A stretch of DNA of 64,000 nt. It comes from a phage. The DNA lies in the sequence record OZ335964.1; one strand, 5' to 3'. Position 1 is the first letter of the stretch. Each line of letters opens with the position of its first letter. Made by a program: the position numbers and the translations under genes. A model generated the notes under the pieces. The model searched no databases, was not told the DNA's origin, and saw only the letters and a program-made list of their open reading frames with translations. Shown here one piece after another: positions 3,599 through 37,734 of this stretch.

Positions 3599-5068
3599 CT
3601 ATTCCCCATTACCATTATACTTTCTTTGCTTAGTTATCCACACTCTAACCATTTCTACTGATTCGCCGTCAGACGGATCAAGAGTTTTTCCTTTTTTCTT
3701 CATGCGGTACTTAAATCCGTTAAATCTTGCATTCTCTTGCTCGTTAAAGTCGAACATCTTTTTAAATGATTTTCGCCCTTTACGCTCACCACATTCTAGC
3801 GGAATCATTCGGTCTGTTATTACATTGGCATTAGGTAGAAACGTTTTTAGATAATCCACCAACGCCCAATCAGGAACATATAGATTAACATTCTCCTTGC
3901 TCTCGTTGTCTCTCAGGTTACAACGCAAACATAATTGAAATGCTGGTTCCAGATAATCAGACACATGACGCGCTTTCAAAAACTCGTTTGTCGGGAGATC
4001 ACAACTATTAGCAAGACCTTTTAAAATATCAATCTCCCATCGTTGAGGGTTAAAGCTGAACATCACAGCAACATTTTTATGATGAATGTAAGAGTTAAGA
4101 CCATAAGATCCGTAAGGTATCCGCTCACCAATACCATTTGTGCACGCTTCTCGGTCCCGATTCACGGTATAAATGAAGTCATCACCACATTCATTTTTAA
4201 CCATATCAACAAGACGTTCAAAGGTATTGTTTGTTTCTGACTGGTGACGCGACCATCGTTCAGAGTCCGTCATAAGGATGATGTTAACTCTATCTGTATT
4301 TTTATACTCTTTGAAATATAGTCTGGATTCTAGCGCACTCGGAACAAAATCGCAATTTGCATAGTATCGTAGATACTTCCCACTATATGTATCAAAGAGA
4401 TTTGCACATGCTATCGTAACCTTTTTAAAGTCTCCCCACGTACCGTGTTTGTTATCGTTCAAGAAAACAATTTTCGACCCATTCTTCCGGTGTCCTTCGT
4501 TATGTTTTACCATAACGTTGATTTTCTTCTCTAATAACGCCTCATAAAGCCCTCTAAGCGAAGAATCGATCATATCAGTACCATCCTTCGCACTTTCTAT
4601 CTTTTCTTTGATAGCGGACTTCTCAGAGTCTTTTAGAACTAAGTTCTGTAGGCATTCCGATTCGTCGGCGATTGGTTCGCAATGCTTCGTGATAAGTTCA
4701 AGATTAGACTTAAACGGATACTCATTAAATTCAACCAGTTGAGGAACTTCATCAATGTAAAGAGCATAATCACCAAACATTTTTGAACGTTCCATATTAG
4801 ATAACGCTGTATGTGTAATGAATATCACATCAGCACCGTCTTTAACTGATTGCATTATCGACGCTTGCACTGTCTTAAGGCTTCTTAGTCGTGTGCTATC
4901 AATCAAGACAGCACGACCGCCCATTCTTTTAAACTTATTGTAAGATTGTTCACTTAAAACACGAGATGGCGAAGCAATAACCGCTTTTTCTTTTGTCTCT
5001 AGGACGTGGGAAAGTATAGCATCAGTTTTCCCCGCCGCTGGCAATGCGATTAATGTTTCAATCTTCAT
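3599..5068 (-). CDS. P-loop NTPase of unknown function (Walker A ALPAAGKT, Walker B ALYIDE)
   Basis: 489 aa; Walker A/B motifs read directly; sits after gp55, next to the slot where T4 has a-gt; no family assignment possible without search. Confidence 0.6.
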   Translation of the reverse strand: MKIETLIALPAAGKTDAILSHVLETKEKAVIASPSRVLSEQSYNKFKRMGGRAVLIDSTRLRSLKTVQASIMQSVKDGADVIFITHTALSNMERSKMFGDYALYIDEVPQLVEFNEYPFKSNLELITKHCEPIADESECLQNLVLKDSEKSAIKEKIESAKDGTDMIDSSLRGLYEALLEKKINVMVKHNEGHRKNGSKIVFLNDNKHGTWGDFKKVTIACANLFDTYSGKYLRYYANCDFVPSALESRLYFKEYKNTDRVNIILMTDSERWSRHQSETNNTFERLVDMVKNECGDDFIYTVNRDREACTNGIGERIPYGSYGLNSYIHHKNVAVMFSFNPQRWEIDILKGLANSCDLPTNEFLKARHVSDYLEPAFQLCLRCNLRDNESKENVNLYVPDWALVDYLKTFLPNANVITDRMIPLECGERKGRKSFKKMFDFNEQENARFNGFKYRMKKKGKTLDPSDGESVEMVRVWITKQRKYNGNGE

Positions 5069-5376: not shown

Positions 5377-5535
5377 TTACTTAATGATACTTACTTTACC
5401 AGATCCATGACAATGAGCGCAACACCCATCACCACGCAATCCTGTTCCGTTACAGTGTTTACACTTCTTCAACGGTAAAGCCATTATAGCAAATAAAGCA
5501 ATAATGAATACCGAAACTAAATTCTCAATAATCAT
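5377..5535 (-). CDS. small membrane-anchored protein with two DnaJ-type CxxCxGxG zinc-finger repeats
   Basis: 52 aa not in ORF track: MIIENLVSVFIIALFAIMAL (TM) then CKHCNGTG...CAHCHGSG; start overlaps stop of upstream glutaredoxin. Confidence 0.4.
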   Translation of the reverse strand: MIIENLVSVFIIALFAIMALPLKKCKHCNGTGLRGDGCCAHCHGSGKVSIIK

Positions 5536-5794
5536 AAATCGCCCTCAGTTCTTTATAGCCTCCAATGTGCTCGTTGTCAATGAATATCTGGGGGTATACA
5601 AACCGGAGGCTCTTTGAGTTCAGCCTCCCCGCCAGTTCTTCAATCATATCACGGTCGGGAATAATGTCAACCCCGACCTGCTTGAATACTGGTTTAAGTG
5701 TATACGGAATACCCAGATCATCCAGTAGCTTCATTGCACTAATACAACCATAACAATGATAAGCCTCTTTCGGTATACCGTATATCTCGATCAT
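5525..5794 (-). CDS. nrdH: glutaredoxin-like protein (NrdH-like)
   Basis: 89 aa; CYGC redox motif, YPQIFIDNEHIGGY glutaredoxin signature; position between gp55 and nrdG as in T4. Confidence 0.8.
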   Translation of the reverse strand: MIEIYGIPKEAYHCYGCISAMKLLDDLGIPYTLKPVFKQVGVDIIPDRDMIEELAGRLNSKSLRFVYPQIFIDNEHIGGYKELRAIYDY

Positions 5795-6267
5795 TTCTCA
5801 GCCTTTAATCTTTCTAGTTCTTCTTCCAGTTCCTTGATCCGTTGGTCACGTTCAAAGTCACGCTGTAACTTAGTGGCGAATACTCGTTTAAACTGATTGT
5901 AATCATCGATTTTAAACACTTCTTCTTCGCCATAGCGACGCACAGAAACTTCGTAGTTATTGAAGAATTGTTGCATCATTGCTTCGGATGATAGCTCTGC
6001 TGATACCACTTTAAAATATTGATCTTCTGTAGGCGAAAACCAATTACAAGCATAAAGATAAACCTTTTCATTGTCTGGACACTGGTAAGCCTTACCATCG
6101 ATTTCAATCACAGAAACATATTCAGGTATACTAGATGAATCAATAGCTAAGACTTTAAACGCACGGTCCCCGATAAACTCGGAGATCACACGATTCGCAT
6201 CACTGGTTGCAAATGCTTTACGCGCTTGTTCGTTTTTCCACTGATAGGTCATACCAACAACAAACAT
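5791..6267 (-). CDS. paralog-family protein (GxTYxWK beta domain + C-terminal coiled coil)
   Basis: ATG at 6267 with GAGGA RBS; MFVVGMTYQWKNE...VIEIDGKAY... then EELERLKAEK-type coiled coil. Confidence 0.55.
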   Translation of the reverse strand: MFVVGMTYQWKNEQARKAFATSDANRVISEFIGDRAFKVLAIDSSSIPEYVSVIEIDGKAYQCPDNEKVYLYACNWFSPTEDQYFKVVSAELSSEAMMQQFFNNYEVSVRRYGEEEVFKIDDYNQFKRVFATKLQRDFERDQRIKELEEELERLKAEK

Positions 6268-6268
6268 A

Positions 6269-7093
6269 TTACCATCCTCGCTCTTTACCAATCAAAAATT
6301 CAACTTCACGACGTTTAATGTCTTCTTGAAGGTCTTTAATCTTCTGGCGATCTTGCATGATTTCATCCATCTTGTCAAGTGCCGCAATGAAATCATCGAA
6401 ACGTTCAAAGGTTTTACCTTCATTTGCTTCGCCAAATTTAACCATTGTCAGTCCGTAACGACTACTAAACAGACGTTTCAACTGTCCAACGATCTTAGAA
6501 TCAGTGGTTATAACTTCCAATTCTTCTACTTCACGAAAGAATTTTCTATCAGAATCAATAAACCAGCTAGTTCCTTTATGGTCTCTATCTTCGGTTGCGC
6601 TCATTAGAGTATGGTCTTTACCATCAATTTCAATTACATCAATTTGCCCACATGGACTAACATTTTTAACAGTAAAAGGTCTATAATTTATTGCTCGTGC
6701 AATAACATAATTAAGGTTAGATACGTTTTCAGCATAATGGCAGAAGTCGGTCATAGCATTCGCATCTTTCCAAGTATAAGTTTTACCAACTTCCCATTTC
6801 TGGGGAACTTCTTCAACTTCACGAAAGAATTTTCGATCGAATGGACTAAAGAAATATGTTGCAGTCCAAATGTCTTTTCCTGTAGCAGTTTTCGCCGTAT
6901 GATAAACACCGTCTAGCTCTATTGCATTAATCCAACCGTTACCCTCGATCTCGATGATGGTAAATGGCTTGTCACCAATAGCTGCACTAATATCGCTGTT
7001 AAGTGGAGAAAGAACACCTTCTCCGTTAGTAATAAACTCAGTTTTAGCGTTTTCATCTTTCCAAGTGTAAGTTTTACCAATTTCCCATTTCAT
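6269..7093 (-). CDS. paralog-family protein with two tandem KWEVGKTYTWKD...DRKFFREVEE domains
   Basis: 274 aa; the ~90 aa domain occurs twice in this one protein. Confidence 0.6.
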   Translation of the reverse strand: MKWEIGKTYTWKDENAKTEFITNGEGVLSPLNSDISAAIGDKPFTIIEIEGNGWINAIELDGVYHTAKTATGKDIWTATYFFSPFDRKFFREVEEVPQKWEVGKTYTWKDANAMTDFCHYAENVSNLNYVIARAINYRPFTVKNVSPCGQIDVIEIDGKDHTLMSATEDRDHKGTSWFIDSDRKFFREVEELEVITTDSKIVGQLKRLFSSRYGLTMVKFGEANEGKTFERFDDFIAALDKMDEIMQDRQKIKDLQEDIKRREVEFLIGKERGW

Positions 7094-7105
7094 AATATAT
7101 TCCCC

Positions 7106-7570
7106 TTAACCGATTTTATCAAGTTCGTTTAATGCTTTCTCTGCTTCCTGTATAGCTTGCACCCTTTCCGGCATTTTGTCAAGAAAATCTTTCAACTCTT
7201 CAAAACTGGAGATATGACGCAAGGCGTTAGCACCGATAGCCGCATGTGATTTGCATTCAAAGCGAATTTTATAATTATCCATCGCCAACTTGAGAAGATC
7301 AATTAGTTTAGATTCTTCTGGAATACTAATTTCTTCAAATCTGCTACGGTCGTGATCCAGAAACCAACAAGATAGACCTACATCGGTTGAACTCATATAA
7401 GTTCCATCATGAAGATATACAGATCGCACGTATCCTTTTTTCGCATCAACCGACGCAACTTTAAACGGTAATCGCAGATATTTCAAATAATCAACATCAT
7501 ACCATTTAAAAAATTGGTTTGCATCTTTTACATCTTTCCACGCATAGGTCTTACCAACTTCCCATTTCAT
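7106..7570 (-). CDS. paralog-family protein (single KWEVGKTY domain)
   Basis: ORF track 7106..7585; homologous start MKWEVGK at 7570. Confidence 0.55.
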   Translation of the reverse strand: MKWEVGKTYAWKDVKDANQFFKWYDVDYLKYLRLPFKVASVDAKKGYVRSVYLHDGTYMSSTDVGLSCWFLDHDRSRFEEISIPEESKLIDLLKLAMDNYKIRFECKSHAAIGANALRHISSFEELKDFLDKMPERVQAIQEAEKALNELDKIG

Positions 7571-7574
7571 AATA

Positions 7575-8099
7575 TCATCTCTCATTTTTGATACGTGATT
7601 CTAATTGGATCATACGGTCTCGCGTTTGCTTGTATTCACGGATATTGCCGATCCGGCTAGGCATACCATCAAGCACGCTCTTAATCCCTTCTAGGGTAGT
7701 GATTTTAGCAATGCTATTATGTAACCCCATCTTATCGATCAACTGAATGTCGTAGGCTTCCATAAGCAGACCCAGACGTTCTAAAGTTAGGTCTTCTTTT
7801 TCTTCCGATTCTGGAATCTTAGGTTCAATAGTAACTTCGGTAAAGAAACGACGCTCACCAGCCCAAAACCACACACCGGAAAAGCCAATAGGGGATTCTT
7901 TTAACGTCATAGAGTCGTAACCACTGCCGATAATAGTAATTTCTCTAACATCACCATCATCGTCAATGTCTTCTACCCTAAACGGGCGACCAGCCAACAA
8001 GTCCACAATACGTCTGTTAATAGACGACGAAAATTTAGTCAGTTCGGCTTTCGACGCTTCGCATTCAATCTTGTAAGTTTTACCAACTTCCCATTCCAT
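7575..8099 (-). CDS. paralog-family protein (MEWEVGKTY domain)
   Basis: ORF track starts with GTG at 8108; ATG at 8099 with GAGGTGA RBS. Confidence 0.55.
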   Translation of the reverse strand: MEWEVGKTYKIECEASKAELTKFSSSINRRIVDLLAGRPFRVEDIDDDGDVREITIIGSGYDSMTLKESPIGFSGVWFWAGERRFFTEVTIEPKIPESEEKEDLTLERLGLLMEAYDIQLIDKMGLHNSIAKITTLEGIKSVLDGMPSRIGNIREYKQTRDRMIQLESRIKNER

Positions 8100-8109
8100 A
8101 ATAATCACC

Positions 8110-8613
8110 TCAAATAATTTTCACTGGAATACTATTAACAATCTTGTATTGTACTTGATTGTCAGACCCCCGCCACGGCTTCTTCGTTGGCATATCTTTA
8201 ATATAACGCCCATCGATGAACATGTCAACTGATTCTACAATTTTTCTTTGCTCATCATTCAATTGGTCAAGGGTATAACCGGACCATAGCCAAATATCTT
8301 TATTTGGCATCCATGATTTTACCTCATCGATGATCCGCTGTACACCCTTTAAATTGCGTTTATACAGTGGATCACCACCTAAGAATGTTAGCCCCTGAAT
8401 AAAATCAGGTCTAAGCAGATCCAGAATCAATCCCATTGTATCATCGGTGAATGGTTCCCCGTTCTTAGGATTGAGTAGGCTAGCATTAAAGCAACCATCA
8501 CATGCGTGTGAACATCCGGTAACGTAAAGGGAGACTCTCACTCCCTCACCGTTAACCATATCACAATCTTTAATATCGGCATAGCGTAGTTTGCCGTATG
8601 TATCAGAACTCAT
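8110..8613 (-). CDS. nrdG: anaerobic ribonucleotide reductase activating protein NrdG (radical SAM)
   Basis: CSHACDGC radical-SAM cysteine motif; size and position as T4 NrdG. Confidence 0.85.
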   Translation of the reverse strand: MSSDTYGKLRYADIKDCDMVNGEGVRVSLYVTGCSHACDGCFNASLLNPKNGEPFTDDTMGLILDLLRPDFIQGLTFLGGDPLYKRNLKGVQRIIDEVKSWMPNKDIWLWSGYTLDQLNDEQRKIVESVDMFIDGRYIKDMPTKKPWRGSDNQVQYKIVNSIPVKII

Positions 8614-8755
8614 ATTCAATTACCCCGAACTCGTTTACAATCTGCGCTTTATAGTAACCACCGCGAGATGCCAATAGATAAGCTGGGCTTAGGTATTCGC
8701 ATTCACGGATTTCTACTTGTGCGTTTTCAGTTTCCCAAATCAGTAAAGTCCACAT
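8603..8755 (-). CDS. small hypothetical protein (promoter-stem-loop cassette ORF)
   Basis: ORF track 8603..8830 overlaps the promoter; ATG at 8755 with AGGAGAATCAAAT leader. Confidence 0.35.
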   Translation of the reverse strand: MWTLLIWETENAQVEIRECEYLSPAYLLASRGGYYKAQIVNEFGVIEYEF

Positions 8756-8797
8756 ATTTGATTCTCCTGTAAAGTTGTATCTCGTCTTGATGAATAT

Positions 8798-8826
8798 AGT
8801 ATAGGGGATCTCGCGATCCCCGTCAA
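8798..8826 (-). promoter_or_regulatory. sigma70-like early promoter with spacer stem-loop (TTGACG-N17-TATACT)
   Basis: minus strand; spacer is palindrome GGGGATC..GATCCCC; A-rich upstream tract. Confidence 0.5.
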
Positions 8827-8830
8827 GCAT

Positions 8831-9358
8831 TTATTTTAAATTTTTTCGAATGTATTCAGACCATTCTCTGCCAGTAAGTTCGGTCCCATTCTGGAAACTG
8901 AAATACTCATACGGCATCGAGTCAAGATAAAACAGGATCATACATCGCGCCATATAATACCAATCACGATTAAAGTAAACTACGTTATCACCAGTACCAT
9001 CAACCCCTTTATCATAACCATCGCGGGTACGGGCGACCCATTGAATAGTATCATTTTTCTCACGGATCGTAACAGGTTCCCAATATCCAGCACATCCAGC
9101 ATGACCACACGAACAAGTAAGGAAATATTGACCTTTTGCTTTGTTGTCATCCCATTCACGATGGATTGGTTCGATCTCGTGAAACAGTGCTAAGCAATCA
9201 TGATTATGCAACACTGGCTTACCATCAATCAATGCATGGAATGTATACAAACGACCAGTAGACAAATAGCTATCCTCACGCTCAACCAGTTCAATAGCAA
9301 TCTTTTTAGCTCGTTCTTTGTGTCGTTGTGCTTTACGCTTACGGTTTAATGATTTCAT
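8831..9358 (-). CDS. hypothetical protein
   Basis: ORF track 8831..9379 begins with TTG; ATG at 9358 with GAGGTGA RBS. Confidence 0.5.
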   Translation of the reverse strand: MKSLNRKRKAQRHKERAKKIAIELVEREDSYLSTGRLYTFHALIDGKPVLHNHDCLALFHEIEPIHREWDDNKAKGQYFLTCSCGHAGCAGYWEPVTIREKNDTIQWVARTRDGYDKGVDGTGDNVVYFNRDWYYMARCMILFYLDSMPYEYFSFQNGTELTGREWSEYIRKNLK

Positions 9359-9375
9359 ATTCACCTCACACATTA

Positions 9376-9918
9376 TCAAAGGTCGCGATATAGTACATTA
9401 TGAAAATGAGAACTTGCATTACCAATATTGTAGATAATAAATTCTTCATCCGGCGCTTGCGCTACAAATTGAGTATGAGCAACCGCCACAACCTTAAAAA
9501 TACGATCCGTGATCTTGTGTTTAATTTCGGCTCCTACTTCCATAGGAACATATTCATGTGTTTCTGTTTCAGTCGCAAAACAGCCATCTTCTTCATAAGC
9601 ACGAACAAATCGATCGCAATCAGTACGCTTAACAAATTCAAGAGTATACAATTCTCGTGAATTGTCGGTATAGACCAATACAGAATTATTATGATAGCGA
9701 ATCACATACAGGTTATTATCATCGTCAATTACGCAAAAGCTACGGATTCCTTCGCCTATACTCCAGCAGATATTAACCACCGTTCCTCTAATAAAAAAAC
9801 TTTCCTTTAAATTAAAACTAGTCAATGTGCTAGCGTGCATTTTAACAACAACACCATCGCCAATTTCCAGTTTACGAAGTTTAACTTCTTTGCTCAGTAC
9901 ACAAAACATCATCATCAT
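9376..9918 (-). CDS. hypothetical protein
   Basis: 180 aa; ATG run (MMMM) with GAGAGGA RBS; promoter-stem-loop element upstream. Confidence 0.5.
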   Translation of the reverse strand: MMMMFCVLSKEVKLRKLEIGDGVVVKMHASTLTSFNLKESFFIRGTVVNICWSIGEGIRSFCVIDDDNNLYVIRYHNNSVLVYTDNSRELYTLEFVKRTDCDRFVRAYEEDGCFATETETHEYVPMEVGAEIKHKITDRIFKVVAVAHTQFVAQAPDEEFIIYNIGNASSHFHNVLYRDL

Positions 9919-9937
9919 GTTGTCCTCTCGTTGTTTT

Positions 9938-9965
9938 CGATGTGAGCATTATACATTAGCTAATC
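9938..9965 (-). promoter_or_regulatory. sigma70-like early promoter (TTGACA-N16-TATAAT)
   Basis: minus strand, directly after nrdD terminator, upstream of gene 9376..9918. Confidence 0.55.
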
Positions 9966-9971
9966 ATGTTG

Positions 9972-10003
9972 TCAACACCCCAAAACGAAAAAGCCGACCC
10001 TTT
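9972..10003 (-). terminator. intrinsic terminator after nrdD
   Basis: GC hairpin with GAAA loop and U-run on minus strand. Confidence 0.6.
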
Positions 10004-10018
10004 CGGATCGGCTAAAAA

Positions 10019-11881
10019 TTACATGTGCTTAACGCGGTTTACCATCTCGGAGTGTTTCCCGTGGTTAAATGGACGCAGATCAACAGATCCAAGATATCCA
10101 CTAACGCGCCGGATAACATTCATCTTTTCCAGATTGTCATTGCCGCAATCAGGACAAACAAAACCAGACTCGGTCGCTCTCATTTCCTTAGTAGATCCGC
10201 ATACATGACATACATCAGAAGGAGTATTAACACCGAAGTAATGCAATTTATCCATTGCATAGTCTACTACAGTTTCAAGACCTTTCAGGTTGTTTTTCAT
10301 GTCTGGGAACTCAACATAAGAGATCATGCCACCGGACGCCAGCCAGTGATAATCTTTCTCAAAGTCGATTTTCTCAAACGGTGTGACTTTCCGGTCTACG
10401 TCAAGATGGAATGAGTTGGTGTACCAGTCTTTATCGGTAGCACCCTTAACAATACCAAATTGCTCTCGATCCAGTCGATTAAATCGATAGCAAAGGCTCT
10501 CGGCTGGCGTACCGTAAAGACTAAACCCAAGTCCGGTTTCGTCCTTCCATTTTTCAGTATAATGACGCAAGATCTTAAGAATATGTTTACCGTATCGCTG
10601 CGCATCTTCCGAATCAAACGGATGAACACCAAACAGGACGCTCAATACCTCATGTAAACCAATATATCCAAGAGAGATACTAGCGCGACCATCTTTCAAC
10701 ACTTCCAAAATTTCATCGTTTTGATGAATACGGAAAAATGCACCTTCTGTATACAGCACAGGAGCAACATTGGCTTTAGCCCCTTTTAAAGCGTCTACGC
10801 GACTCATCAGCGCATCAAAGCAAATAGGCATACGATTAGCTAGCTCTTGTTCGAATAGCTCAATTCTGCGCATTACAGACGCTTTACCAGCACGACGCGC
10901 GGCAATAAGAGCAATACGCGGAAGATTCAGAGTCACAACACCTAAGTTATTACGTCCGTCTAATACTTCTTCGCCTTTCTCATTATGCCACACACCCAGG
11001 AAGCTACGACAACCCATCGGGCTAACCGGAACACTAGATCCAGTGATACTACGGTTATTCTTCGCAGAGATATAATCAGGGTAAAGACGCTTACTAGAAC
11101 ATTCCAATGCAAGTTGCTTAATGTCGTAGTTCGGATCTTCCGGTTTAAGGTTTAATCCTTCTTCTAAGAACATCACCAGCTTAGGAAACACCGGAGTGAT
11201 ACCATCTTTACCTAAACCTTTAGTTCGAACGTTCAGGATCGCTTTCTGAATCAGTTTTTCTTCCCAGCTAGTACCCATACCAAAGGTTAAAGTCACAAAA
11301 GGCGTTTGACCGTTGGTAGAGAACAAAGTGTTGATCTCATATTCCAACGCCTGATATCCGTCTAACGTTTCTTTTTCTGTCTTCTCTTGTGCATAGAGAG
11401 TATCAGCTTTGATTCCGTAGGTTTCGGCATCAGCAAGGTGTTTATGATATGTTTTCTCAACATACGGTGCTAACACCTGATCGATGTTTGCAATTGTGGT
11501 CCCGCCATATTGATGACTTGCCACCTGTGCGATAATTTGAGCGGTTACAGCACAAGCAACGCCGATTGATTTCGGACTTTCGATTTGTGCACTACCCAAT
11601 TTAAAACCATTCTCTAACATGTCTTTGAGATTAACAAGACAGCAGTTAGTAAACGGCATAGCGGGTGCATAATCCATATCATGATAATGAATATCACCGT
11701 CTACATGCGCTTTATAGATGTGCTCAGGTAACACGGTTTTAGCAATCTGTTTAGACACAGCACCAGCAATCAGATCTCGACGTGTCGGGAATGTTCGCGC
11801 GTCTTTGTTCGCGTTCTCTTTGCTTACTTCGTTTTCTTTACCCGTTGCGATCTCTGTAATGTCTTTGATTAGTTTTTCCAT
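10019..11881 (-). CDS. nrdD: anaerobic ribonucleoside-triphosphate reductase NrdD (glycyl radical enzyme)
   Basis: 620 aa; C-terminal RVSGYLG glycyl radical motif and CPDCG zinc site. Confidence 0.9.
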   Translation of the reverse strand: MEKLIKDITEIATGKENEVSKENANKDARTFPTRRDLIAGAVSKQIAKTVLPEHIYKAHVDGDIHYHDMDYAPAMPFTNCCLVNLKDMLENGFKLGSAQIESPKSIGVACAVTAQIIAQVASHQYGGTTIANIDQVLAPYVEKTYHKHLADAETYGIKADTLYAQEKTEKETLDGYQALEYEINTLFSTNGQTPFVTLTFGMGTSWEEKLIQKAILNVRTKGLGKDGITPVFPKLVMFLEEGLNLKPEDPNYDIKQLALECSSKRLYPDYISAKNNRSITGSSVPVSPMGCRSFLGVWHNEKGEEVLDGRNNLGVVTLNLPRIALIAARRAGKASVMRRIELFEQELANRMPICFDALMSRVDALKGAKANVAPVLYTEGAFFRIHQNDEILEVLKDGRASISLGYIGLHEVLSVLFGVHPFDSEDAQRYGKHILKILRHYTEKWKDETGLGFSLYGTPAESLCYRFNRLDREQFGIVKGATDKDWYTNSFHLDVDRKVTPFEKIDFEKDYHWLASGGMISYVEFPDMKNNLKGLETVVDYAMDKLHYFGVNTPSDVCHVCGSTKEMRATESGFVCPDCGNDNLEKMNVIRRVSGYLGSVDLRPFNHGKHSEMVNRVKHM

Positions 11882-11925
11882 TGTATCACCTATGAAAAAG
11901 CGGGATTTCTCCCGCTCGTTGATAG

Positions 11926-12420
11926 TTATTTTACCAGTTCTGCTAATTCTTTTTCCGCCGCTTCCAGTTCAGCTTTCAGTTGTTTGATCTCTTGTCGCTT
12001 CTTATTAGCGGCTTCCTGCTTACTATTTCGGATAACCTGATCTAGATACAACTCCCAATCCTGAATATTTTTGATAATGTAGCCGTCAACGTTCAGAGCT
12101 TTAATATTAAGAACTTCTTCCAGCTTACTTAAAGAACGTTGTGTTTCTGGGAAGAAATAGTCATATTCACCTCGGTCAAACCAGTAGCTTATGCCAGCTT
12201 TATCTAAACGACGATGCAATTCATAAAAATCTCTACCATCTTCGACGATGAGTTTGTCTACATCGCCATTACAGTTAACAGAGACTTTGAATCTAATATT
12301 ATCAACCCCACCAAAAACATCAATAAGGATAGTTCCGATCGTGTTATCCGCGCTTCCAGTATCCATAAAAGATTCTAGTTTTTCTTGATTAGTAACGTAC
12401 CAAACATCTTGTTTCCACAT
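11926..12420 (-). CDS. hypothetical protein with C-terminal coiled coil (distant paralog-family member)
   Basis: 164 aa; beta-rich N-terminal part, KQLKAELEAAEKELAELVK tail. Confidence 0.5.
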   Translation of the reverse strand: MWKQDVWYVTNQEKLESFMDTGSADNTIGTILIDVFGGVDNIRFKVSVNCNGDVDKLIVEDGRDFYELHRRLDKAGISYWFDRGEYDYFFPETQRSLSKLEEVLNIKALNVDGYIIKNIQDWELYLDQVIRNSKQEAANKKRQEIKQLKAELEAAEKELAELVK

Positions 12421-12450
12421 AATATAATCCTCTCGTTGTTAAGTGGGAGT

Positions 12451-12478
12451 ATTATAGCATACTCCCTTCGCATGTCAA
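12451..12478 (-). promoter_or_regulatory. sigma70-like early promoter with stem-loop (TTGACA-N16-TATAAT)
   Basis: minus strand; hairpin GGGAGTAT..ATACTCCC overlaps spacer and -10. Confidence 0.55.
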
Positions 12479-13653
12479 GCACTAACTTTTTTCTTTACTG
12501 CTTTCACCTTCTGGCGAATTGCTCGAATCTCTTCGATCTCTTTTTCAGTCTCTTTAACAATTTCTTTGCGATTCTGAATATCTGTATCGAGATTATCATC
12601 AAGTTTAGGCAGCATGTCAATCAAGAACTTTTTAAAGTCTTTCAGGTTTCTGATAACAGCACCTTCACCCATTACCGCCACCCCTACACCATCCGGCAGA
12701 TCGCCAAACAGTTTAACCAGTTCAGACAGATGATCATGATCTTCTAGTGCTTCTTCCGGTTCAGATGGCAGTTCAACAAAGTTATAACGTTCATCATTGC
12801 TGATGATGTGATACCAGCAAAGCCCGAATGATTTCGGTGTATATTCTACACCATCAATTTCAACCGAGTCAACACTTCCATAATCATCTACTTTAGTTAC
12901 CTTAAATCCTTGTCCCAGCTTTTGAACAATTTCAACAACATGACTTGATACAGTTTCAGCGGTAAACCAATATGGCAAATTATGCTGATTTGGCTTGTAG
13001 CGTTCACCTACTTTAAATCTCTGACCAGCCGCTTGCATAGCATGAAATTGTTGTTTCGTGATTTCCGCGAAGTATTCAAATTCGCTACCATCAAACAAGC
13101 AATTCCATTGATCACAAAAACGATCCGCCTTGACGGTTTCACCTTTCGCGGTGATCACGGTAGCTGATCCGTGCAATTCTTCTTCAACTAAAAAGCCATA
13201 TTCGACAAAATCGACAAGTTTCATGGCTTCTTTGTGCTCTGGATCATTCTCTCCCCAGAATCGCTTAAATTCTTGCAAACCTTCCGGGGTAAACGAATAA
13301 CATTTACCTTTTTCAAAGTAAGTCGGCATTGCATCCTCTTTCTTGTTCATAGCTTCGTATGCCTCTTTTGAGATACGTTTAAAGTATTTGCGCTCATTGT
13401 GCATAATCATAGTAGCCCAATAATAAACGATATCCTCAGCGGAATAAACTACATCTCCAGCTTCAATAGTAATAACATGACCGTGGTCATCTTTTTCTAA
13501 TACTTTAAAGCCCTTTTCTACGATTTCAGCAACCCGAATATGACCACGGCGCGAAGCATCGGTCAGAATAATTGAATAGCGAGAAAAGTCTAGAAACTCA
13601 TCTTTACCGCCTTCACGGAATGCATAGTAATGACCTTCAAAGAATTTAGCCAT
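12475..13653 (-). CDS. paralog-family protein, multi-domain (ERKYFKRI and DERYNF repeats)
   Basis: 392 aa; repeated FKV..VD..G.V..IE.DG..Y units. Confidence 0.6.
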   Translation of the reverse strand: MAKFFEGHYYAFREGGKDEFLDFSRYSIILTDASRRGHIRVAEIVEKGFKVLEKDDHGHVITIEAGDVVYSAEDIVYYWATMIMHNERKYFKRISKEAYEAMNKKEDAMPTYFEKGKCYSFTPEGLQEFKRFWGENDPEHKEAMKLVDFVEYGFLVEEELHGSATVITAKGETVKADRFCDQWNCLFDGSEFEYFAEITKQQFHAMQAAGQRFKVGERYKPNQHNLPYWFTAETVSSHVVEIVQKLGQGFKVTKVDDYGSVDSVEIDGVEYTPKSFGLCWYHIISNDERYNFVELPSEPEEALEDHDHLSELVKLFGDLPDGVGVAVMGEGAVIRNLKDFKKFLIDMLPKLDDNLDTDIQNRKEIVKETEKEIEEIRAIRQKVKAVKKKVSA

Positions 13654-13684
13654 AATATAATCCTCTCGTTGTTTAGACGGGAGT

Positions 13685-13713
13685 ATCTTACTACTCCCGT
13701 TTCATCATGTCAA
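13685..13713 (-). promoter_or_regulatory. sigma70-like early promoter with stem-loop (TTGACA-N17-TAAGAT)
   Basis: minus strand; hairpin ACGGGAGTA..TACTCCCGT. Confidence 0.45.
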
Positions 13714-14276
13714 GCGTTAAATGACTTTTGGATCTCTTTCAGTTCAGCTACTTTATCGGCGCTGAATTTAGCGTAGGTATCATGTCGAATAATTTCACTT
13801 TCAAGAAAGGTTTCCAGCCGAGATCTATTTTCAATAAGGAACTCTTTCAGGTCTTCCGCGTTCTTGATAAAGATTTTATTGTCGGTAATGTCATCTTCAA
13901 TCGCAAAGGAGATAGAGCGAACTTTACCAAACAAGTTAATCAGATCTTCCAGAGATTCTTCTTTCTTAACTGGTTTCATTTCTTCAAACTGCTTTTTAGT
14001 GATGCGTTTAAAGTATTTGCGCTCGTTTGCAGCAATCAGAACAGATGCACCTTCATACTCATGAGTTTCTACCAGATACACACGACCCATCGCATCAACA
14101 GTGAGAACTTTAAAGCCGTTACAAAGCACGTCATACAAGAACTTATTATGTTGCGGACATCGTTTGATAAATTCCTCTGCGGACTCAGCATTACGGAAAG
14201 TGTAATAACGACCTCGTTCAAAAACAGCATCAGTTGAAGACTTAGCCGGATACAATTTATACGTTTTCTGTACCAT
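13710..14276 (-). CDS. paralog-family protein (ANERKYFKRI domain)
   Basis: ORF track 13710..14294; ATG at 14276 with GAGGATTATATT leader. Confidence 0.55.
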   Translation of the reverse strand: MVQKTYKLYPAKSSTDAVFERGRYYTFRNAESAEEFIKRCPQHNKFLYDVLCNGFKVLTVDAMGRVYLVETHEYEGASVLIAANERKYFKRITKKQFEEMKPVKKEESLEDLINLFGKVRSISFAIEDDITDNKIFIKNAEDLKEFLIENRSRLETFLESEIIRHDTYAKFSADKVAELKEIQKSFNA

Positions 14277-14290
14277 AATATAATCCTCTA

Positions 14291-14563
14291 TCATTTCACT
14301 AATTGAACAGCACGAAACAGAATGCGGTCACACGGAAGAAGCATAAATTCCCAACGCGGATCAAAGTCTTTAGCGGTATATGTTTTCCCATCAACCGAGA
14401 TTTCACTTACATAACCAATAGGTGACACTTTAAGAATAGTAAATCCATTCTTGATGACTTCGTAGGTATCTTTCAATCCTTCGTAGTCATCCTCTAGGAA
14501 GTCTTTACGTGCTTGCTCAGATTTAAAAACATAGGCCACACCGGATTTAAACATCTTACGCAT
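14291..14563 (-). CDS. paralog-family protein (single domain)
   Basis: 90 aa; FTILKVSPIGYVSEISVDGKTY; AGAAGGAGAATCAACA RBS. Confidence 0.5.
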   Translation of the reverse strand: MRKMFKSGVAYVFKSEQARKDFLEDDYEGLKDTYEVIKNGFTILKVSPIGYVSEISVDGKTYTAKDFDPRWEFMLLPCDRILFRAVQLVK

Positions 14564-14594
14564 TGTTGATTCTCCTTCTTGATTAGATGGGAGT

Positions 14595-14623
14595 ATTTTA
14601 CTACTCCCATTTCATGCTGTCAA
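14595..14623 (-). promoter_or_regulatory. sigma70-like early promoter with stem-loop (TTGACA-N17-TAAAAT)
   Basis: minus strand; hairpin ATGGGAGTA..TACTCCCAT; overlaps gp49 stop. Confidence 0.45.
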
Positions 14624-15414: not shown

Positions 15415-16227
15415 TCAATCTACGTTAGTTACATAAACTTCTTGTGTATCAGAAGACTTGCCTCCTGAACGATCTAGGCAATAGGTCTTATTCAACAGGA
15501 CGCAGTTTAGATCATTCCTCTTGATAAAGTCAAGAAGATGATCATTTACCTTTCCCTTATGATGCGTGACATTACTGATACCAAACTGAAAACCACGCAC
15601 CATAATAGATTCCACCCACTGATAGAATTTAATCTCTTCCTCGTCACTCCAGAACTTATTATATTCCGCAGAAGTGATAAGGTACGGCGGGTCCAAATAA
15701 ACGAAATCGCCTGGCAAGATCTCGATCTCGTCATATCGTCCAGAAGTAAAATTGATTCGACCGTCTTTGTTTTCTTCTTTAAAATTCAGGACACGCTCTA
15801 CCGCGTTTTCGTTAAAAGTCCGGCGACCAAAATTAGCATTAAATTCGCCCTTCCGGTTATGTCGGTTAATGTTGCTAAAACTATGCTGAATCAACACAAA
15901 CAGCGATAGCGGATCTGGATTCTCGTTATACTTCTTACGGAATGTCATGTAAGCGTCTTTATCTTCGCGAGACAAACCATTCTCGGCAATAATCCGCTTG
16001 ATCGTAGAAACCGGATCAGGACACTCGTCAATGGCCTTGTAAGCGTCAATTAAACGATGGTCGTAGTCATTAGCCAGCACATCACCTTCGACGTACAGAG
16101 ACACGCTCAAGCCACCACAAAAGGCATCGACAAAGCGGTTATAGTGCTTAGGGAAATACTTACTAACACCAGGCAATAACTTTTCCTTATTGCCCGTATA
16201 GGGAATTAAACCTAATGCTTTCTTCAT
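15415..16227 (-). CDS. dam: DNA adenine methyltransferase Dam (GATC-type N6-adenine MTase)
   Basis: FVDAFCGGLSVSL SAM motif, DFVYLDPPYLITSAEYNKFWSDEEE matches remembered T4 Dam. Confidence 0.9.
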   Translation of the reverse strand: MKKALGLIPYTGNKEKLLPGVSKYFPKHYNRFVDAFCGGLSVSLYVEGDVLANDYDHRLIDAYKAIDECPDPVSTIKRIIAENGLSREDKDAYMTFRKKYNENPDPLSLFVLIQHSFSNINRHNRKGEFNANFGRRTFNENAVERVLNFKEENKDGRINFTSGRYDEIEILPGDFVYLDPPYLITSAEYNKFWSDEEEIKFYQWVESIMVRGFQFGISNVTHHKGKVNDHLLDFIKRNDLNCVLLNKTYCLDRSGGKSSDTQEVYVTNVD

Positions 16228-16658
16228 TATCCCTTCCTCAAATACGTTCGCTCAATCTCTACCAGTTCGAAAAATTCTTGCCAACCGCAAGGAAAATTGC
16301 AGTTTCCAAAATGATCCTCTTTGTAAAGTTCTTTACCGGATGGCAGCTTAATATCTGTTACGCTGTAGTATCCGCAACAATCGCAATCACCCTCTGTATA
16401 TTCTGTTTTAGTCGGAATATCCATCATTGCCAGATACAAAGGTACATCGTCTTGCTCAAAGTTCATGTAACCTTCATGGTCAAACGAAACAAAATTGTCA
16501 TCACCGCCGAAAGGGATATAATGGTCATAATCGGTTACAGGTTGACCGTGTAATTCCCATTCTACAATTTTAACATTACCGCTAAAATTGATACCCATAA
16601 TTTCAACAAGAAAATGAGTATCGTCAATGTAAATCTTACTAGGAGTTGGATAAACCAT
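16227..16658 (-). CDS. hypothetical protein
   Basis: 143 aa; GAGGATTATATA leader. Confidence 0.5.
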   Translation of the reverse strand: MVYPTPSKIYIDDTHFLVEIMGINFSGNVKIVEWELHGQPVTDYDHYIPFGGDDNFVSFDHEGYMNFEQDDVPLYLAMMDIPTKTEYTEGDCDCCGYYSVTDIKLPSGKELYKEDHFGNCNFPCGWQEFFELVEIERTYLRKG

Positions 16659-18173: not shown

Positions 18174-18452
18174 TTACATGTCTTGCAGTGCATAAAAGCA
18201 TTTTTCTTCGTAGTCATAGAAAATGTCAAAGTATGCTTTTTCTACATACTCGCCATTGATCCAAGCGGCAGTAACAATCAGAGTGGTCCAGTTAGATCCG
18301 CTCTCAACGGTAAAGGTTTTAATACCCAGCTTCGCTGCTAAGTCGAACGCAAACCGGACGCAACCACGGCAGGAAGTGATATTGGAAGTTTTGATTTTAA
18401 AGCCACCGCGAGTTTTAGAAATTTCTACTTTAGCGAAAGACAGGTTGCTCAT
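18174..18452 (-). CDS. hypothetical protein
   Basis: 92 aa; AAGGAGAATCAAA leader; promoter-stem-loop upstream. Confidence 0.5.
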   Translation of the reverse strand: MSNLSFAKVEISKTRGGFKIKTSNITSCRGCVRFAFDLAAKLGIKTFTVESGSNWTTLIVTAAWINGEYVEKAYFDIFYDYEEKCFYALQDM

Positions 18453-18494
18453 TTTGATTCTCCTTAAGAAAGTGTGTTTCGTTTTGATGTGTGT

Positions 18495-18523
18495 AGTATA
18501 GGGGATCGGTGATCCCCTGTCAA
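18495..18523 (-). promoter_or_regulatory. sigma70-like early promoter with stem-loop (TTGACA-N17-TATACT)
   Basis: minus strand; spacer is palindrome GGGGATCACCGATCCCC; conserved leader ...AAAACGAAACACAC...AAGGAGAATCAAA. Confidence 0.55.
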
Positions 18524-18532
18524 CAACTTTTT

Positions 18533-18862
18533 TTATGAGTTTAGTGAATTAACTACTACATCAAAATGATGTACAGAGTACACCTTATTAAACACATACT
18601 CATCGTGTTTAGGAATAGCCCCTAATCGCTCTATTTCGCTCGCTAACACGATAAACCGTTTATCCGGTGCATTTACCTTATATGCTTCAACAACGCACGG
18701 GAAACGCGTTTCAGAGAGTTCTGGATAGTTTTCTGAATCCATCAGGACAATGAATACCCTGTTACATTGATTGTAGAATCCTGTTTTTGATTTCATCAAG
18801 TTTTCTTCTCTGTACAATTCGTGCAATCTTCCTTTCATGATTTCGTTGGTTCTTGTCTTCAC
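18533..18862 (-). CDS. hypothetical protein (start uncertain; candidates 18838, 18796, 18742)
   Basis: ORF track coordinates; overlaps upstream gene, no unambiguous RBS. Confidence 0.35.
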   Translation of the reverse strand: MKTRTNEIMKGRLHELYREENLMKSKTGFYNQCNRVFIVLMDSENYPELSETRFPCVVEAYKVNAPDKRFIVLASEIERLGAIPKHDEYVFNKVYSVHHFDVVVNSLNS

Positions 18863-33361: not shown

Positions 33362-33694
33362 TCACACCTTTAAAGTCATAGACGCATAAACATTAACACC
33401 AGGCCAGTTAGGATCGCAATTATACTCAACATCCCACAAATAAAGCGGTTTAGATGTATCAGCCAAGTTTTTAAAATCTTCTACCCACATTTCAATGCTA
33501 TATGATGGATAAACTAGGCTGTCATATCCTCCGTAACGTTGGCCTACTGGTCGGTCAGTAAAAACTACCTCAAGATCCGGTAATTCTTTTTCAAGGATAA
33601 CCGCCAGCGCATAAATCAGACGGTCTTCCTTGTTACGCTGCCGAAGGACCGTTGTCAGTTGGCTTTTCTGGTTCACTAGCAAGCACCTCCACAT
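33362..33694 (-). CDS. hypothetical protein (start uncertain)
   Basis: ORF track 33362..33700 (GTG); overlaps upstream gene by about 60 nt. Confidence 0.35.
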   Translation of the reverse strand: MWRCLLVNQKSQLTTVLRQRNKEDRLIYALAVILEKELPDLEVVFTDRPVGQRYGGYDSLVYPSYSIEMWVEDFKNLADTSKPLYLWDVEYNCDPNWPGVNVYASMTLKV

Positions 33695-33953
33695 TTTCAC
33701 AGAATGAAATTTTCACAGACACAATTTTACCATAAGTGAAGAATGAATATACATTATCGAGATATTCAACGTCACCTACAATCACATCAAACTGCGGATC
33801 AGCAACCGCCGCAACATATTCTACCAGTTCATCAAGAGAATGCAACTTAATTTCATCAATTCGGCTGTATTTGGTTGCATCTTTGATTTTAAAACCACGT
33901 TCTTTCAGCTTATCAATTAGAATTTCACGCGGAGTTTCAAACAGTTTGCTCAT
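33633..33953 (-). CDS. hypothetical protein
   Basis: 106 aa; GAGGATTATACT leader. Confidence 0.5.
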   Translation of the reverse strand: MSKLFETPREILIDKLKERGFKIKDATKYSRIDEIKLHSLDELVEYVAAVADPQFDVIVGDVEYLDNVYSFFTYGKIVSVKISFCENVEVLASEPEKPTDNGPSAA

Positions 33954-33975
33954 AGTATAATCCTCACATAGTTAA

Positions 33976-37286: not shown

Positions 37287-37661
37287 TTAAGAAAATTTTA
37301 CTTCGTCTACAATGTCTTTCATGACATTGATTTCCATTCCGGTCAGAACACGTTGGAACATGTGCTGCACATACGCTTTCAGATATTCATTTGATGGCTT
37401 GCTATCAAAAGTCTTTTTAGTATAGTAGTCATCACCGAAAGCTACTGTAATTACATTTTCGTCGTCGTTCCAAGCGATATAAGCAAATTTGCCGTTATCC
37501 CAGAAGCGAGCACTAATTGCTACTTTTGTTGAATCGAATCCTACTTCGCTGTGAGATTCAAGAACTACTTGCGTGCCAGTTTCTTTATGAATGTAGTAGC
37601 GGGATACTAAGTCAAAGTTACGAGTGTAGTGACATTCGAATTTATCTTTAAACATCATCAT
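37287..37661 (-). CDS. hypothetical protein
   Basis: ORF track 37287..37730 overlaps promoter; ATG run at 37661 after GGAGAATCAAAA leader. Confidence 0.5.
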   Translation of the reverse strand: MMMFKDKFECHYTRNFDLVSRYYIHKETGTQVVLESHSEVGFDSTKVAISARFWDNGKFAYIAWNDDENVITVAFGDDYYTKKTFDSKPSNEYLKAYVQHMFQRVLTGMEINVMKDIVDEVKFS

Positions 37662-37698
37662 TTTTGATTCTCCTAGTGTGTTTCGTTTCGATATGTGC

Positions 37699-37728
37699 AT
37701 TATGATATAGTCGTTTATGGTTGTCAAC
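37699..37728 (-). promoter_or_regulatory. sigma70-like early promoter (TTGACA-N18-CATAAT)
   Basis: minus strand; directly after terminator of the Acb1-like gene. Confidence 0.45.
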
Positions 37729-37734
37729 ACCTAA

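What the first reader, a model, noticed from the sequence alone, without database searches (positions are those of the whole stretch)
5791..14563. Expanded paralogous domain family (GKTYxWK ... IEIDG ... RKFF/ERKYF) in two clusters flanking nrdG and nrdD
Eight genes (5791-6267, 6269-7093, 7106-7570, 7575-8099, 11926-12420, 12475-13653, 13710-14276, 14291-14563) carry one to three copies of an about 90 aa beta-rich domain with recurring motifs (K/E-W-E-V-G-K-T-Y-x-W-K; FKV..VD..G.V..IEIDG..Y; DRKFFREVEE / ERKYFKRI), usually followed by a coiled-coil tail. I count at least 12 domain copies within 9 kb. I do not recognise the domain. Such expansion in a lytic phage early region suggests a diversifying host-takeover or counter-defence family.
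Basis: seen in the sequence. Interest (0 to 1): 0.75.

Follow-up and report, generated by a model that had tools for sequence, protein, structure and literature searches.

The report
Expanded GoF-family genes with swappable domains
An RB49-like T4-type coliphage carries eight neighbouring genes (11 domain copies) of the already described but functionally unsolved GoF/Frd.2/MotB.1 family, and in closely related phages the small barrel domain of five copies has been swapped for very different versions while the rest of each gene stays nearly identical, which points to a target-recognition role.

Summary
The window is an RB49-like Krischvirus (T4-type coliphage). All eight minus-strand genes carry the roughly 90 aa domain, but there are 11 copies, not 12 or more: ten are robust and G5 is divergent.

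The domain is not unknown. [quoted passage not shown] 2025, PMC12152347). A profile built only from the window copies finds T4 GoF at E 2.9e-9 and Frd.2 at 6.5e-5. The AlphaFold2 model of G4 gives a confident barrel closest to FeoA, Tudor and KOW folds.

I did not find the following described in the papers I searched:
- The family is expanded at the nrdH–nrdG and nrdD–gene 49 junctions, which hold no family member in T4.
- Some proteins carry two or three barrels in tandem.
- G1–G7 share a C-terminal helix–hairpin–helix–long-helix module.
- Three family-specific promoter/stem-loop cassettes sit upstream of G5, G6 and G8.
- Across nine Krischvirus genomes that are about 98% identical in backbone genes, the barrels of G1, G2b, G3, G4 and G5 occur as deep alleles (39–64% aa identity), while their tails stay 81–100% identical.
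- Gene and domain number also vary between these phages.

Function remains unproven. Modular early host-interaction binders are my best reading. Counter-defence is plausible but untested.

The parts
5791..6267 (-). G1: one barrel domain (NTD, 5983-6267) plus the conserved C-terminal module with a coiled-coil-like end (5791-5982)
   Evidence: (leave-one-out E 6.5e-14). phrog_5347 at 1.5e-60 and phrog_622 at 5.7e-7. Three NTD allele types are seen in 9 genomes.
6269..7093 (-). G2: two tandem barrels (NTDa 6803-7093, NTDb 6503-6802) plus the C-terminal module (6269-6502)
   Evidence: both copies about 6e-15. The 30-nt repeat encoding DRKFFREVEE lies at 6521-6550 and 6809-6838 at 93% identity. One-barrel versions occur in phage E26, AV108 and metagenomic proteins P0001/P0002.
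7106..7570 (-). G3: one barrel (7313-7570) plus the C-terminal module (7106-7312)
   Evidence: (E 9e-13). The NTD is 46-47% identical and the CT 96-97% identical to the alternative allele found in five of eight relatives.
7575..8099 (-). G4: one barrel (7818-8099) plus the C-terminal module (7575-7817). This is the protein that was modelled.
11926..12420 (-). G5: a divergent member, with one barrel (12136-12420) plus the C-terminal module and a long heptad helix (11926-12135)
   Evidence: Broad family HMM E 3.3e-7. hhalign 77% probability, E 2e-5. The AF2 model has the same order of secondary-structure elements as G4 but low confidence, 64.6. The NTD is 44-52% and the CT 81-87% identical to the orthologues.
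12475..13653 (-). G6 (annotated frd.2 / goF-like in RB49): three tandem barrels (13342-13653, 13039-13341, 12739-13038) plus the C-terminal module (12475-12738)
   Evidence: 2e-10, 4e-3, 3e-10. phrog_8944 'goF mRNA metabolism modulator' at 7e-213. Annotation.
13710..14276 (-). G7: one barrel (13965-14237) plus the C-terminal module (13710-13964). In this gene the tail is the more variable part.
   Evidence: E 8.7e-13; CT 62-63% identical in KMB43 and Whisky. Absent from KFS-EC.
14291..14563 (-). G8: a barrel domain alone, with no tail
   Evidence: E 8.4e-17; phrog_16115. Absent from KFS-EC.
12421..12478 (-). PeSL-type cassette upstream of G5: TTGACA, the stem GGGAGTA...TACTCCC overlapping a TATAAT -10 box, then a Shine-Dalgarno sequence
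   Evidence: (12 of 12 promoter matches). The cassette type is described in PMC2839356.
13654..13713 (-). PeSL-type cassette of the same subtype upstream of G6
14564..14623 (-). PeSL-type cassette of the same subtype upstream of G8 (G8 and G7 lie 14 nt apart and are probably co-transcribed)
   Evidence: The pattern occurs exactly 3 times in 64 kb, with 0 expected.
6739..8104 (-). Four copies of a 69-nt direct repeat covering the ribosome-binding site and the first ~20 codons (MKWEVGKTY...) of G2b, G2a, G3 and G4
   Evidence: family D1, 67-77% identity. These are traces of the tandem duplications and possible recombination substrates.

Best explanation
The region is a lineage-specific expansion of the GoF/Frd.2/MotB.1 family of T4-type phages. 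It comprises eight genes and eleven copies of the family's N-terminal SH3-like beta-barrel. In seven of the genes the barrel or barrels are followed by one shared C-terminal module that ends in a long heptad helix.

Shown here:
- the barrel fold;
- the common tail;
- sigma-70 consensus promoter/stem-loop cassettes in front of G5, G6 and G8;
- the population pattern, in which the barrels of five slots are replaced by deeply divergent alleles on an almost identical backbone, and genes and barrels are gained and lost.

Inferred mechanism:
- These are early, dispensable host-interaction proteins.
- The barrel is the specificity module that binds a target. The target is more likely a host protein than RNA, because 9 of the 11 barrels are acidic and the nearest folds are protein-binding Tudor, KOW, CarD and FeoA barrels.
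- The conserved tail dimerises or anchors the protein.
- Tandem or dimerised barrels would therefore bind multivalently and sequester or retarget the host factor.
- The only functional clue for the family is T4 goF genetics (rho suppression and mRNA stabilisation by GoF D25Y). This points to the transcription-termination or RNA-decay machinery as one target class.
- The allele shuffling suggests that several targets vary between host strains.
- New barrels can be imported by recombination between the conserved upstream region (PeSL or repeat) and the conserved tail.
For: Identity:
- The window-only HMM hits T4 GoF at 2.9e-9, Frd.2 at 6.5e-5 and MotB.1 at 0.013, each over the full domain.
- T4 GoF and Frd.2 both fall in phrog_622, which seven of the eight window proteins also hit.
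- The family is described in PMC12152347.

Fold:
- AF2 model of G4 has NTD blocks at pLDDT 80-95.
- BFVD gives 68 hits, all uncharacterised proteins, the named ones mostly from T4-type phages.

Tail: alignment and HMM, and the same order of secondary-structure elements in the G4 and G5 models.

Early promoters. PeSL promoter and terminator activity was shown experimentally for RB49/phi1 cassettes in PMC2839356.

Barrel-restricted diversity:
- Per-domain identity and dN/dS.
- Diversity map of 0.18-0.24 against 0.011-0.026.
- 18 barrel types in 11 slots across 9 genomes.
- Alleles are nearest to alleles of the same slot.

Copy-number changes: KFS-EC lacks G4, G7 and G8. E26 and AV108 have a one-barrel G2.

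Placement: T4 has no family member at these junctions. RB49 has none at the T4 goF, motB.1 or frd.2 positions.

Charge: barrel pI is 4.5-6.1, except G7 at 8.9 and G8 at 7.8.
Against: - No binding partner, dimer or expression timing was measured here.
- The AF2 tail is only moderately confident (pLDDT 58-79).
- The only experimental phenotype in the family concerns RNA stability, which favours an RNA-linked role. [quoted passage not shown]
- dN/dS is below 1 in all barrels, with dS saturated, so positive selection is not shown.
- Unrelated neighbours (orf8831, orf9376) show the same deep-allele pattern. Part of the diversity may therefore simply reflect a recombination-prone accessory region.
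Confidence: 0.5

Rival explanations
1. RNA-binding LSm-like modulators. The barrels bind mRNA or sRNA directly, as proposed for GoF(D25Y), and tune the stability or translation of phage or host transcripts. Multiple paralogues and tandem barrels would give different RNA specificities.
For: - GoF(D25Y) raises reporter mRNA half-life post-transcriptionally, and the family was described as LSm-like (PMC12152347).
- PHROGs labels G6 and G7 'goF mRNA metabolism modulator'.
- The site of the second rho-suppressor mutation, GoF G84R, is naturally K or R in 5 of the 11 copies.
- G7 and G8 barrels are basic.
Against: - Wild-type GoF and MotB.1 had little effect in the same assay.
- Nine of the 11 barrels are acidic.
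- AF3 gave no confident ring oligomers in the paper.
Confidence: 0.22
2. Counter-defence family. Each barrel inhibits or decoys a particular host immune protein, and the allele turnover reflects an arms race with strain-variable defence systems.
For: - Barrel-restricted allele replacement, and presence/absence of genes and domains, among phages about 98% identical in backbone genes.
- Early-type promoters.
- Location in accessory segments that are dispensable in T4-type phages. The T4 family members are non-essential.
Against: - No similarity to PADLOC models.
- No experiment links any family member to defence.
- dN/dS is below 1.
- Unrelated neighbouring ORFs share the allele pattern.
- The only genetics in the family points to Rho and mRNA rather than immunity.
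Confidence: 0.2
3. Functionally neutral or selfish cassette expansion. PeSL- and repeat-mediated recombination duplicates and shuffles ORFan cassettes, and the family persists without a specific host-directed activity.
For: - PeSL-mediated shuffling is documented in RB49/phi1 (PMC2839356).
- Direct repeats lie at the gene 5' ends.
- T4 members show no phenotype when deleted.
Against: - There is purifying selection on barrels (dN/dS 0.2-0.5) and tails (0-0.46, mostly at or below about 0.25).
- Core residues are conserved across T4-type genera.
- All 11 copies are retained in 8 of the 9 genomes compared.
- GoF is abundant, at about 20,000 copies per cell.
Confidence: 0.08

Closest known systems
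T4 GoF (ComC-alpha), Frd.2 and MotB.1: the phage 'LSm-like fold' family (Kim et al. 2025, PMC12152347)
   Same: - Homologous N-terminal barrel of about 90 aa, with the same conserved core (G..Y ... F ... F.V ... G.V ... F.EV).
- The barrel is followed by a linker and a C-terminal part.
- Encoded by T4-type phages among accessory genes.
- FeoA-like SH3 barrels are the nearest solved folds, both here and in the paper.
   Different: - Eight clustered genes here, against three dispersed single-barrel genes in T4.
- Two- and three-barrel proteins.
- A different, longer, shared tail ending in a coiled-coil-like helix. The T4 tails are short and unlike each other.
[quoted passage not shown]
- Barrel-only allele replacement between near-identical phages is not reported for the T4 genes.
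PeSL + ORFan cassettes of RB49/phi1 (Arbiol et al. 2010, PMC2839356)
   Same: G5, G6 and G8 are each preceded by a strong sigma-70 consensus promoter with an overlapping stem-loop, a Shine-Dalgarno sequence and a start codon. The surrounding genes vary between close relatives, as described for PeSL-flanked ORFans.
   Different: - That paper describes whole-ORF insertion, deletion or replacement. Here the unit replaced is usually only the barrel-coding part, with the downstream breakpoint inside the gene at the domain boundary.
- Cluster 1 (G4-G1) has no PeSL and relies on coding-sequence repeats.
- The paper does not describe this gene family.
SH3-like small barrels: FeoA, Tudor domains of PcrA/UvrD, CarD RNAP-interacting domain, KOW domains of EF-P/Spt5, and the Sm/LSm fold (Hfq)
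   Different: - No sequence relationship: there are no Pfam or PDB sequence hits.
- Two helices are inserted between strands 1 and 2.
- No metal-binding histidines and no Sm motifs.

Membership tests
GoF/Frd.2/MotB.1 phage family (Kim et al. 2025) | [quoted passage not shown] | tested here: met
   An HMM built from the window copies alone hits GoF at 2.9e-9, Frd.2 at 6.5e-5 and MotB.1 at 0.013, each full length. Cross-hits to phrog_622, the PHROG family of T4 GoF and Frd.2. G5 is recovered only by the broad profile, at 3.3e-7.
GoF/Frd.2/MotB.1 phage family (Kim et al. 2025) | Predicted bent five-stranded antiparallel beta-sheet (SH3/LSm-like), with FeoA-type barrels as nearest structures | tested here: met
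GoF/Frd.2/MotB.1 phage family (Kim et al. 2025) | Early gene of a T4-type phage, non-essential | not testable with these tools
   The phage type is confirmed. Early expression is inferred from sigma-70 consensus/PeSL cassettes. Natural loss of G4, G7 and G8 in KFS-EC indicates that those genes are dispensable.
GoF/Frd.2/MotB.1 phage family (Kim et al. 2025) | Effect on mRNA level or stability (known only for the GoF D25Y mutant) | not testable with these tools
   Needs reporter or RNA half-life assays.
Pfam PF03197 (Bacteriophage FRD2 protein) | Score at or above the Pfam gathering threshold (29 bits) | tested here: not met
   Only G6 matches, at 17.5 bits over residues 164-204. T4 Frd.2 itself scores 133 bits.
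Sm/LSm (Hfq-like) RNA chaperones | Sm1/Sm2 sequence motifs or a match to an LSM or Hfq model | tested here: not met
   No Pfam hit to LSM or Hfq for any of the eight proteins. No PDB sequence hit.
Sm/LSm (Hfq-like) RNA chaperones | Closest structural neighbours are Sm/Hfq proteins; basic RNA-binding faces; ring oligomer | tested here: inconclusive
PeSL regulatory cassettes (Arbiol et al. 2010) | Sigma-70 consensus promoter combined with a stem-loop, just upstream of the Shine-Dalgarno sequence and start codon of an accessory ORF | tested here: met
   Three sites with TTGACA, the GGGAGTA/TACTCCC stem overlapping the -10 box, and then SD and ATG. Promoter and terminator activity of these particular sites was not measured.

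The most novel reading that the evidence does not exclude
The GoF-family barrel is a hypervariable, exchangeable target-recognition cassette mounted on a constant dimerising tail. In effect it would be a phage-encoded repertoire of modular binders. Alleles are traded between phages by recombination between conserved upstream cassettes and the conserved tail. Individual barrels would neutralise strain-variable host factors, either immune proteins or components of the Rho/RNA-decay machinery. If so, the decades-old question of what goF does would become tractable through natural allele swaps.
Probability: 0.25. Interest if true: 0.8.

Novelty: new variant of a known kind. Interest (0 to 1): 0.5.

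Why it matters
The function of goF has been open since the rho-suppressor genetics that named the gene (work cited in PMC12152347). The family was recognised only in 2025, and only as three single-copy T4 genes with no wild-type phenotype.

The Krischvirus clusters provide what the T4 genes lack:
- many paralogues side by side;
- natural one-, two- and three-barrel versions;
- natural chimeras in which only the barrel differs on an otherwise identical phage.

This identifies the barrel as the likely specificity determinant. It also supplies ready-made isogenic comparisons for finding the targets, through pull-downs, host-range tests and defence-system panels. Finally, it extends PeSL-type modular shuffling from whole ORFs to sub-genic domain cassettes.

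Tried and rejected
- Pfam, NCBIfam and PADLOC scans of all eight proteins gave only sub-threshold noise.
- The PDB sequence profile search gave only chance-level calmodulin/EF-hand and RepX matches to the 'FkVlDvDgdG' stretch. I rejected these as compositional.
- In the 1.84-billion-protein representative search, the multi-kilodalton hits (P0036, P0037, P0042 and others) match only 25-35 profile positions, repeatedly. They have no full-length domain, so I rejected them.
- Weak in-window hits at 33636-33971, 37290-37730 and 18177-18548 cover only part of the profile and are not counted.
- The G5 structure model was too uncertain (pLDDT 64.6). Its fold search returned only its own orthologue as significant.
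- The afdb50 fold library was unavailable, so cellular homologues were not searched by structure.
- I tried to map the GoF D25Y site onto the copies. The site falls in a variable-length loop where the alignment is ambiguous, so no conclusion was drawn.
- I tested whether alternative barrel alleles arise by conversion from another slot of the same genome. They are nearest to alleles of their own slot, except for a marginal case at G2b, so conversion is not supported.
- Pairwise NG86 dN/dS cannot test positive selection here, because dS is saturated (about 1 or higher) between allele classes.


Full report
**What the window is.** The 9.7 kb around the finding is 93–98% identical in DNA to 59 Krischvirus records, including RB49, phi1, JSE and GEC-3S. 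The window is therefore an RB49-type, T4-like lytic coliphage. The gene order is nrdH, G1, G2, G3, G4, nrdG, three unrelated ORFs, nrdD, G5, G6, G7, G8, gene 49. In T4 the nrdH–nrdG interval holds only 55.8, and nrdD abuts gene 49. Both clusters are therefore lineage-specific insertions into a conserved backbone.

**Checking the observation.**
- BLASTP all-against-all links G1–G4 and G6–G8 with E values down to 1e-12.
- MAFFT aligns ten domain copies with invariant G, Y, F and F core positions.
- In a leave-one-gene-out test, a profile built from the other genes finds every omitted copy. Nine copies score E 1e-10 to 1e-17 and G6b scores 4e-3, for the 603 six-frame ORFs of the window.
- No other ORF in the 64 kb scores over the full profile.
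- G5 is not significant with the small profiles (E 0.08–0.3). A 47-sequence family profile that excludes G5 detects it at E 3.3e-7 over 80 of 88 positions. A profile of G5 orthologues aligns to the domain profile with 77% probability (E 2e-5, 88 columns).
- The low-confidence G5 model has the same order of helices and strands as G4.

The count is therefore eight genes and eleven copies (1, 2, 1, 1, 1, 3, 1, 1), not twelve or more. G1–G7 also share a conserved C-terminal module, predicted as helix, beta-hairpin, helix and a long heptad helix. G8 is a barrel alone.

**What the domain is.** It is not an unknown domain.
- PHROGs places G1–G4 in phrog_5347. Seven of the eight proteins also hit phrog_622, and G6 and G7 fall in phrog_8944, 'goF mRNA metabolism modulator'. 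T4 GoF and Frd.2 themselves fall in phrog_622, and GoF also hits phrog_5347.
- The HMM made only from the window copies finds T4 GoF (E 2.9e-9), Frd.2 (6.5e-5) and MotB.1 (0.013), each over the full domain.
- Kim et al. 2025 (PMC12152347) described exactly this family. [quoted passage not shown] All three genes are non-essential. GoF is abundant and early. Only the GoF(D25Y) mutant stabilises a reporter mRNA.
- My AlphaFold2 model of G4 (32-sequence alignment) has NTD blocks at pLDDT 80–95, but only 58–79 in the tail.
- Foldseek against BFVD returns 68 viral proteins. All are uncharacterised apart from RB49-type Dc2. The named ones come from T4-type phages of Aeromonas, Edwardsiella, Proteus, Citrobacter, Serratia, Klebsiella and others, plus phAPEC8-like phages.
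- Pfam, NCBIfam, PADLOC and PDB sequence searches give nothing above threshold. The Pfam FRD2 model is not met (17.5 against 29 bits).

**How large the family is.** Exhaustive HMMER over 1.84 billion cluster representatives finds 67 hits. About 55 of these are genuine, and they include two- and three-barrel proteins in other lineages. [quoted passage not shown] RB49 has the eight genes here plus Dc2, next to gene 41 and outside the window (E 5e-7; Foldseek 3.5e-7).

**Regulatory context.** G5, G6 and G8 are each preceded by the same cassette: TTGACA, a GGGAGTA…TACTCCC stem overlapping the −10 box, a Shine-Dalgarno sequence and ATG. This pattern occurs exactly three times in the 64 kb, with none expected by chance. 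It fits the PeSL (promoter-early stem-loop) cassettes of RB49/phi1. Those cassettes were shown experimentally to be strong promoters and terminators and to mediate modular shuffling (PMC2839356). G4–G1 are tightly packed behind nrdG without PeSLs. They share a 69-nt repeat over the ribosome-binding site and first codons, and G2 carries a 30-nt, 93%-identical repeat at the ends of its two barrels.

**Population pattern (the part I did not find described in the papers searched).** I compared the window with RB49, UPWr_E1, KMB43, KFS-EC, FL04, Makalu_002, JSE and Whisky.
- Backbone genes (nrdH, nrdG, nrdD, gene 49, nrdC) are 97–100% identical in protein, with dS of about 0–0.17, mostly below 0.1.
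- Several family genes occur as two or three deeply divergent forms, and the divergence is confined to the barrel. The table gives amino-acid identity between allele classes:

| Gene | Barrel identity | Tail identity |
|---|---|---|
| G1 | 58–64% | 90–97% |
| G2 (barrel b) | 39–43% | 100% |
| G3 | 46–47% | 96–97% |
| G4 | 49% | 89–95% |
| G5 | 44–52% | 81–87% |

- In G2, barrel a stays 93–99% identical while barrel b diverges.
- Mean pairwise nucleotide difference is 0.18–0.24 in these five barrel segments, 0.03–0.08 in their tails and 0.011–0.026 in backbone genes.
- The nine genomes hold 18 barrel types (80% identity clusters) in 11 slots.
- Each alternative allele is closest to another allele of the same slot. 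These are therefore old allelic lineages imported or maintained by recombination, not conversions from a neighbouring paralogue.
- dN/dS is 0.2–0.5 in barrels and 0–0.46 in tails (mostly at or below about 0.25), with dS saturated between classes. Purifying selection is evident, and positive selection is not demonstrated.
- Copy number also varies. KFS-EC lacks G4, G7 and G8. Phages E26 and AV108 carry a one-barrel G2, as do two metagenomic proteins whose junctions sit at the repeats.
- G7 is an exception, because its tail is the variable part. G6 and G8 are comparatively conserved.
- The unrelated ORFs between nrdG and nrdD show similar deep alleles. The whole segment is therefore recombination-prone.

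**Mechanism.**

Shown here:
- family membership;
- the barrel fold;
- the shared tail;
- promoter cassettes;
- barrel-restricted allele exchange.

Inferred:
- The barrel is the specificity module and the tail a constant dimerisation or anchoring element. Supporting this, GoF and MotB.1 run partly as dimers, and the tails end in heptad-patterned helices.
- Tandem or dimeric barrels would bind a target multivalently.
- I favour protein targets. Nine of the eleven barrels are acidic. The nearest folds are protein-binding Tudor, KOW, CarD and FeoA barrels. Wild-type GoF and MotB.1 did not act on RNA in the published assay.
- The goF–rho genetics suggests the termination or RNA-decay machinery as one target class.
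- The allele turnover suggests strain-variable targets, which could include defence proteins.

Direct RNA binding remains a serious rival. GoF D25Y supports it, the G84R site is naturally K or R in 5 of 11 copies, and G7 and G8 are basic. Counter-defence also remains a serious rival. Neither can be decided computationally.

**Verdict.** This is a real paralogous expansion of a known but functionally unsolved phage family. Its 'diversifying host-takeover/counter-defence' reading is partly supported by strong barrel-specific polymorphism, but it is not shown. I rate it a new variant of a known kind, of moderate interest.

Noticed in passing
window 9948-10013 (-): Directly after the nrdD stop there is a 9-bp GC-rich hairpin with a T-run (10013-9992), followed by a perfect TTGACA-16-TATAAT promoter (9975-9948) in front of orf9376. 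This is another terminator-plus-early-promoter (PeSL-like) unit, of a different subtype from the three at G5, G6 and G8.
   Followed up: partly
window 8831-9358 and 9376-9912 (-): The two ORFs between nrdG and nrdD (PHROG 8242 and 14838, unknown function, not family members) also occur as deep alleles among near-identical Krischvirus genomes: 52-59% and 72-73% aa identity, with nucleotide diversity 0.23 and 0.10.
   Followed up: partly
RB49 NC_005066 11993-12628 (locus L004; outside the window): RB49 Dc2 (211 aa, between 61.1/dc1 and gene 41) matches the barrel profile (E 5e-7). The Dc2 of phage ECD7 is a Foldseek hit of the G4 model (3.5e-7). Dc2 appears to be a ninth family gene in RB49-type phages.
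   Followed up: partly
L012 (JSE) 6035-8657; L008 (KMB43) 11420-12175: In JSE, nrdD is split by a homing endonuclease gene. In KMB43, a homing endonuclease sits between nrdC and dam, and the ORF corresponding to window 16227-16658 is missing.
   Followed up: no
window 3599-5068 (-): A 489-aa ORF (phrog_2467, unknown function) begins with a Walker-A-like 'LPAAGKTD' motif. It is 99-100% conserved among relatives, so it may be an uncharacterised NTPase.
   Followed up: no
window 5377-5535 (-): A 52-aa ORF with a hydrophobic N-terminal helix followed by two CxxCxGxG repeats (KHCNGTG...AHCHGSG). It looks like a membrane-anchored DnaJ-type zinc-finger miniprotein.
   Followed up: no
window G2a, G2b, G4, G6a, G7 (column of T4 GoF G84): The position of the T4 GoF G84R rho-suppressor mutation, just before the conserved FF.EV motif, is naturally Lys or Arg in 5 of the 11 copies. 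The D25Y position falls in a variable-length loop and cannot be aligned reliably.
   Followed up: partly
BFVD hits: Several runs of near-consecutive UniProt accessions (for example seven A0A873W... entries, several A0A6G5Y4... entries, and E1A2G9/E1A2H0 of Aeromonas phage phiAS5) suggest that other T4-type phages also carry multi-gene clusters of this family. This rests on the accession patterns only.
   Followed up: no
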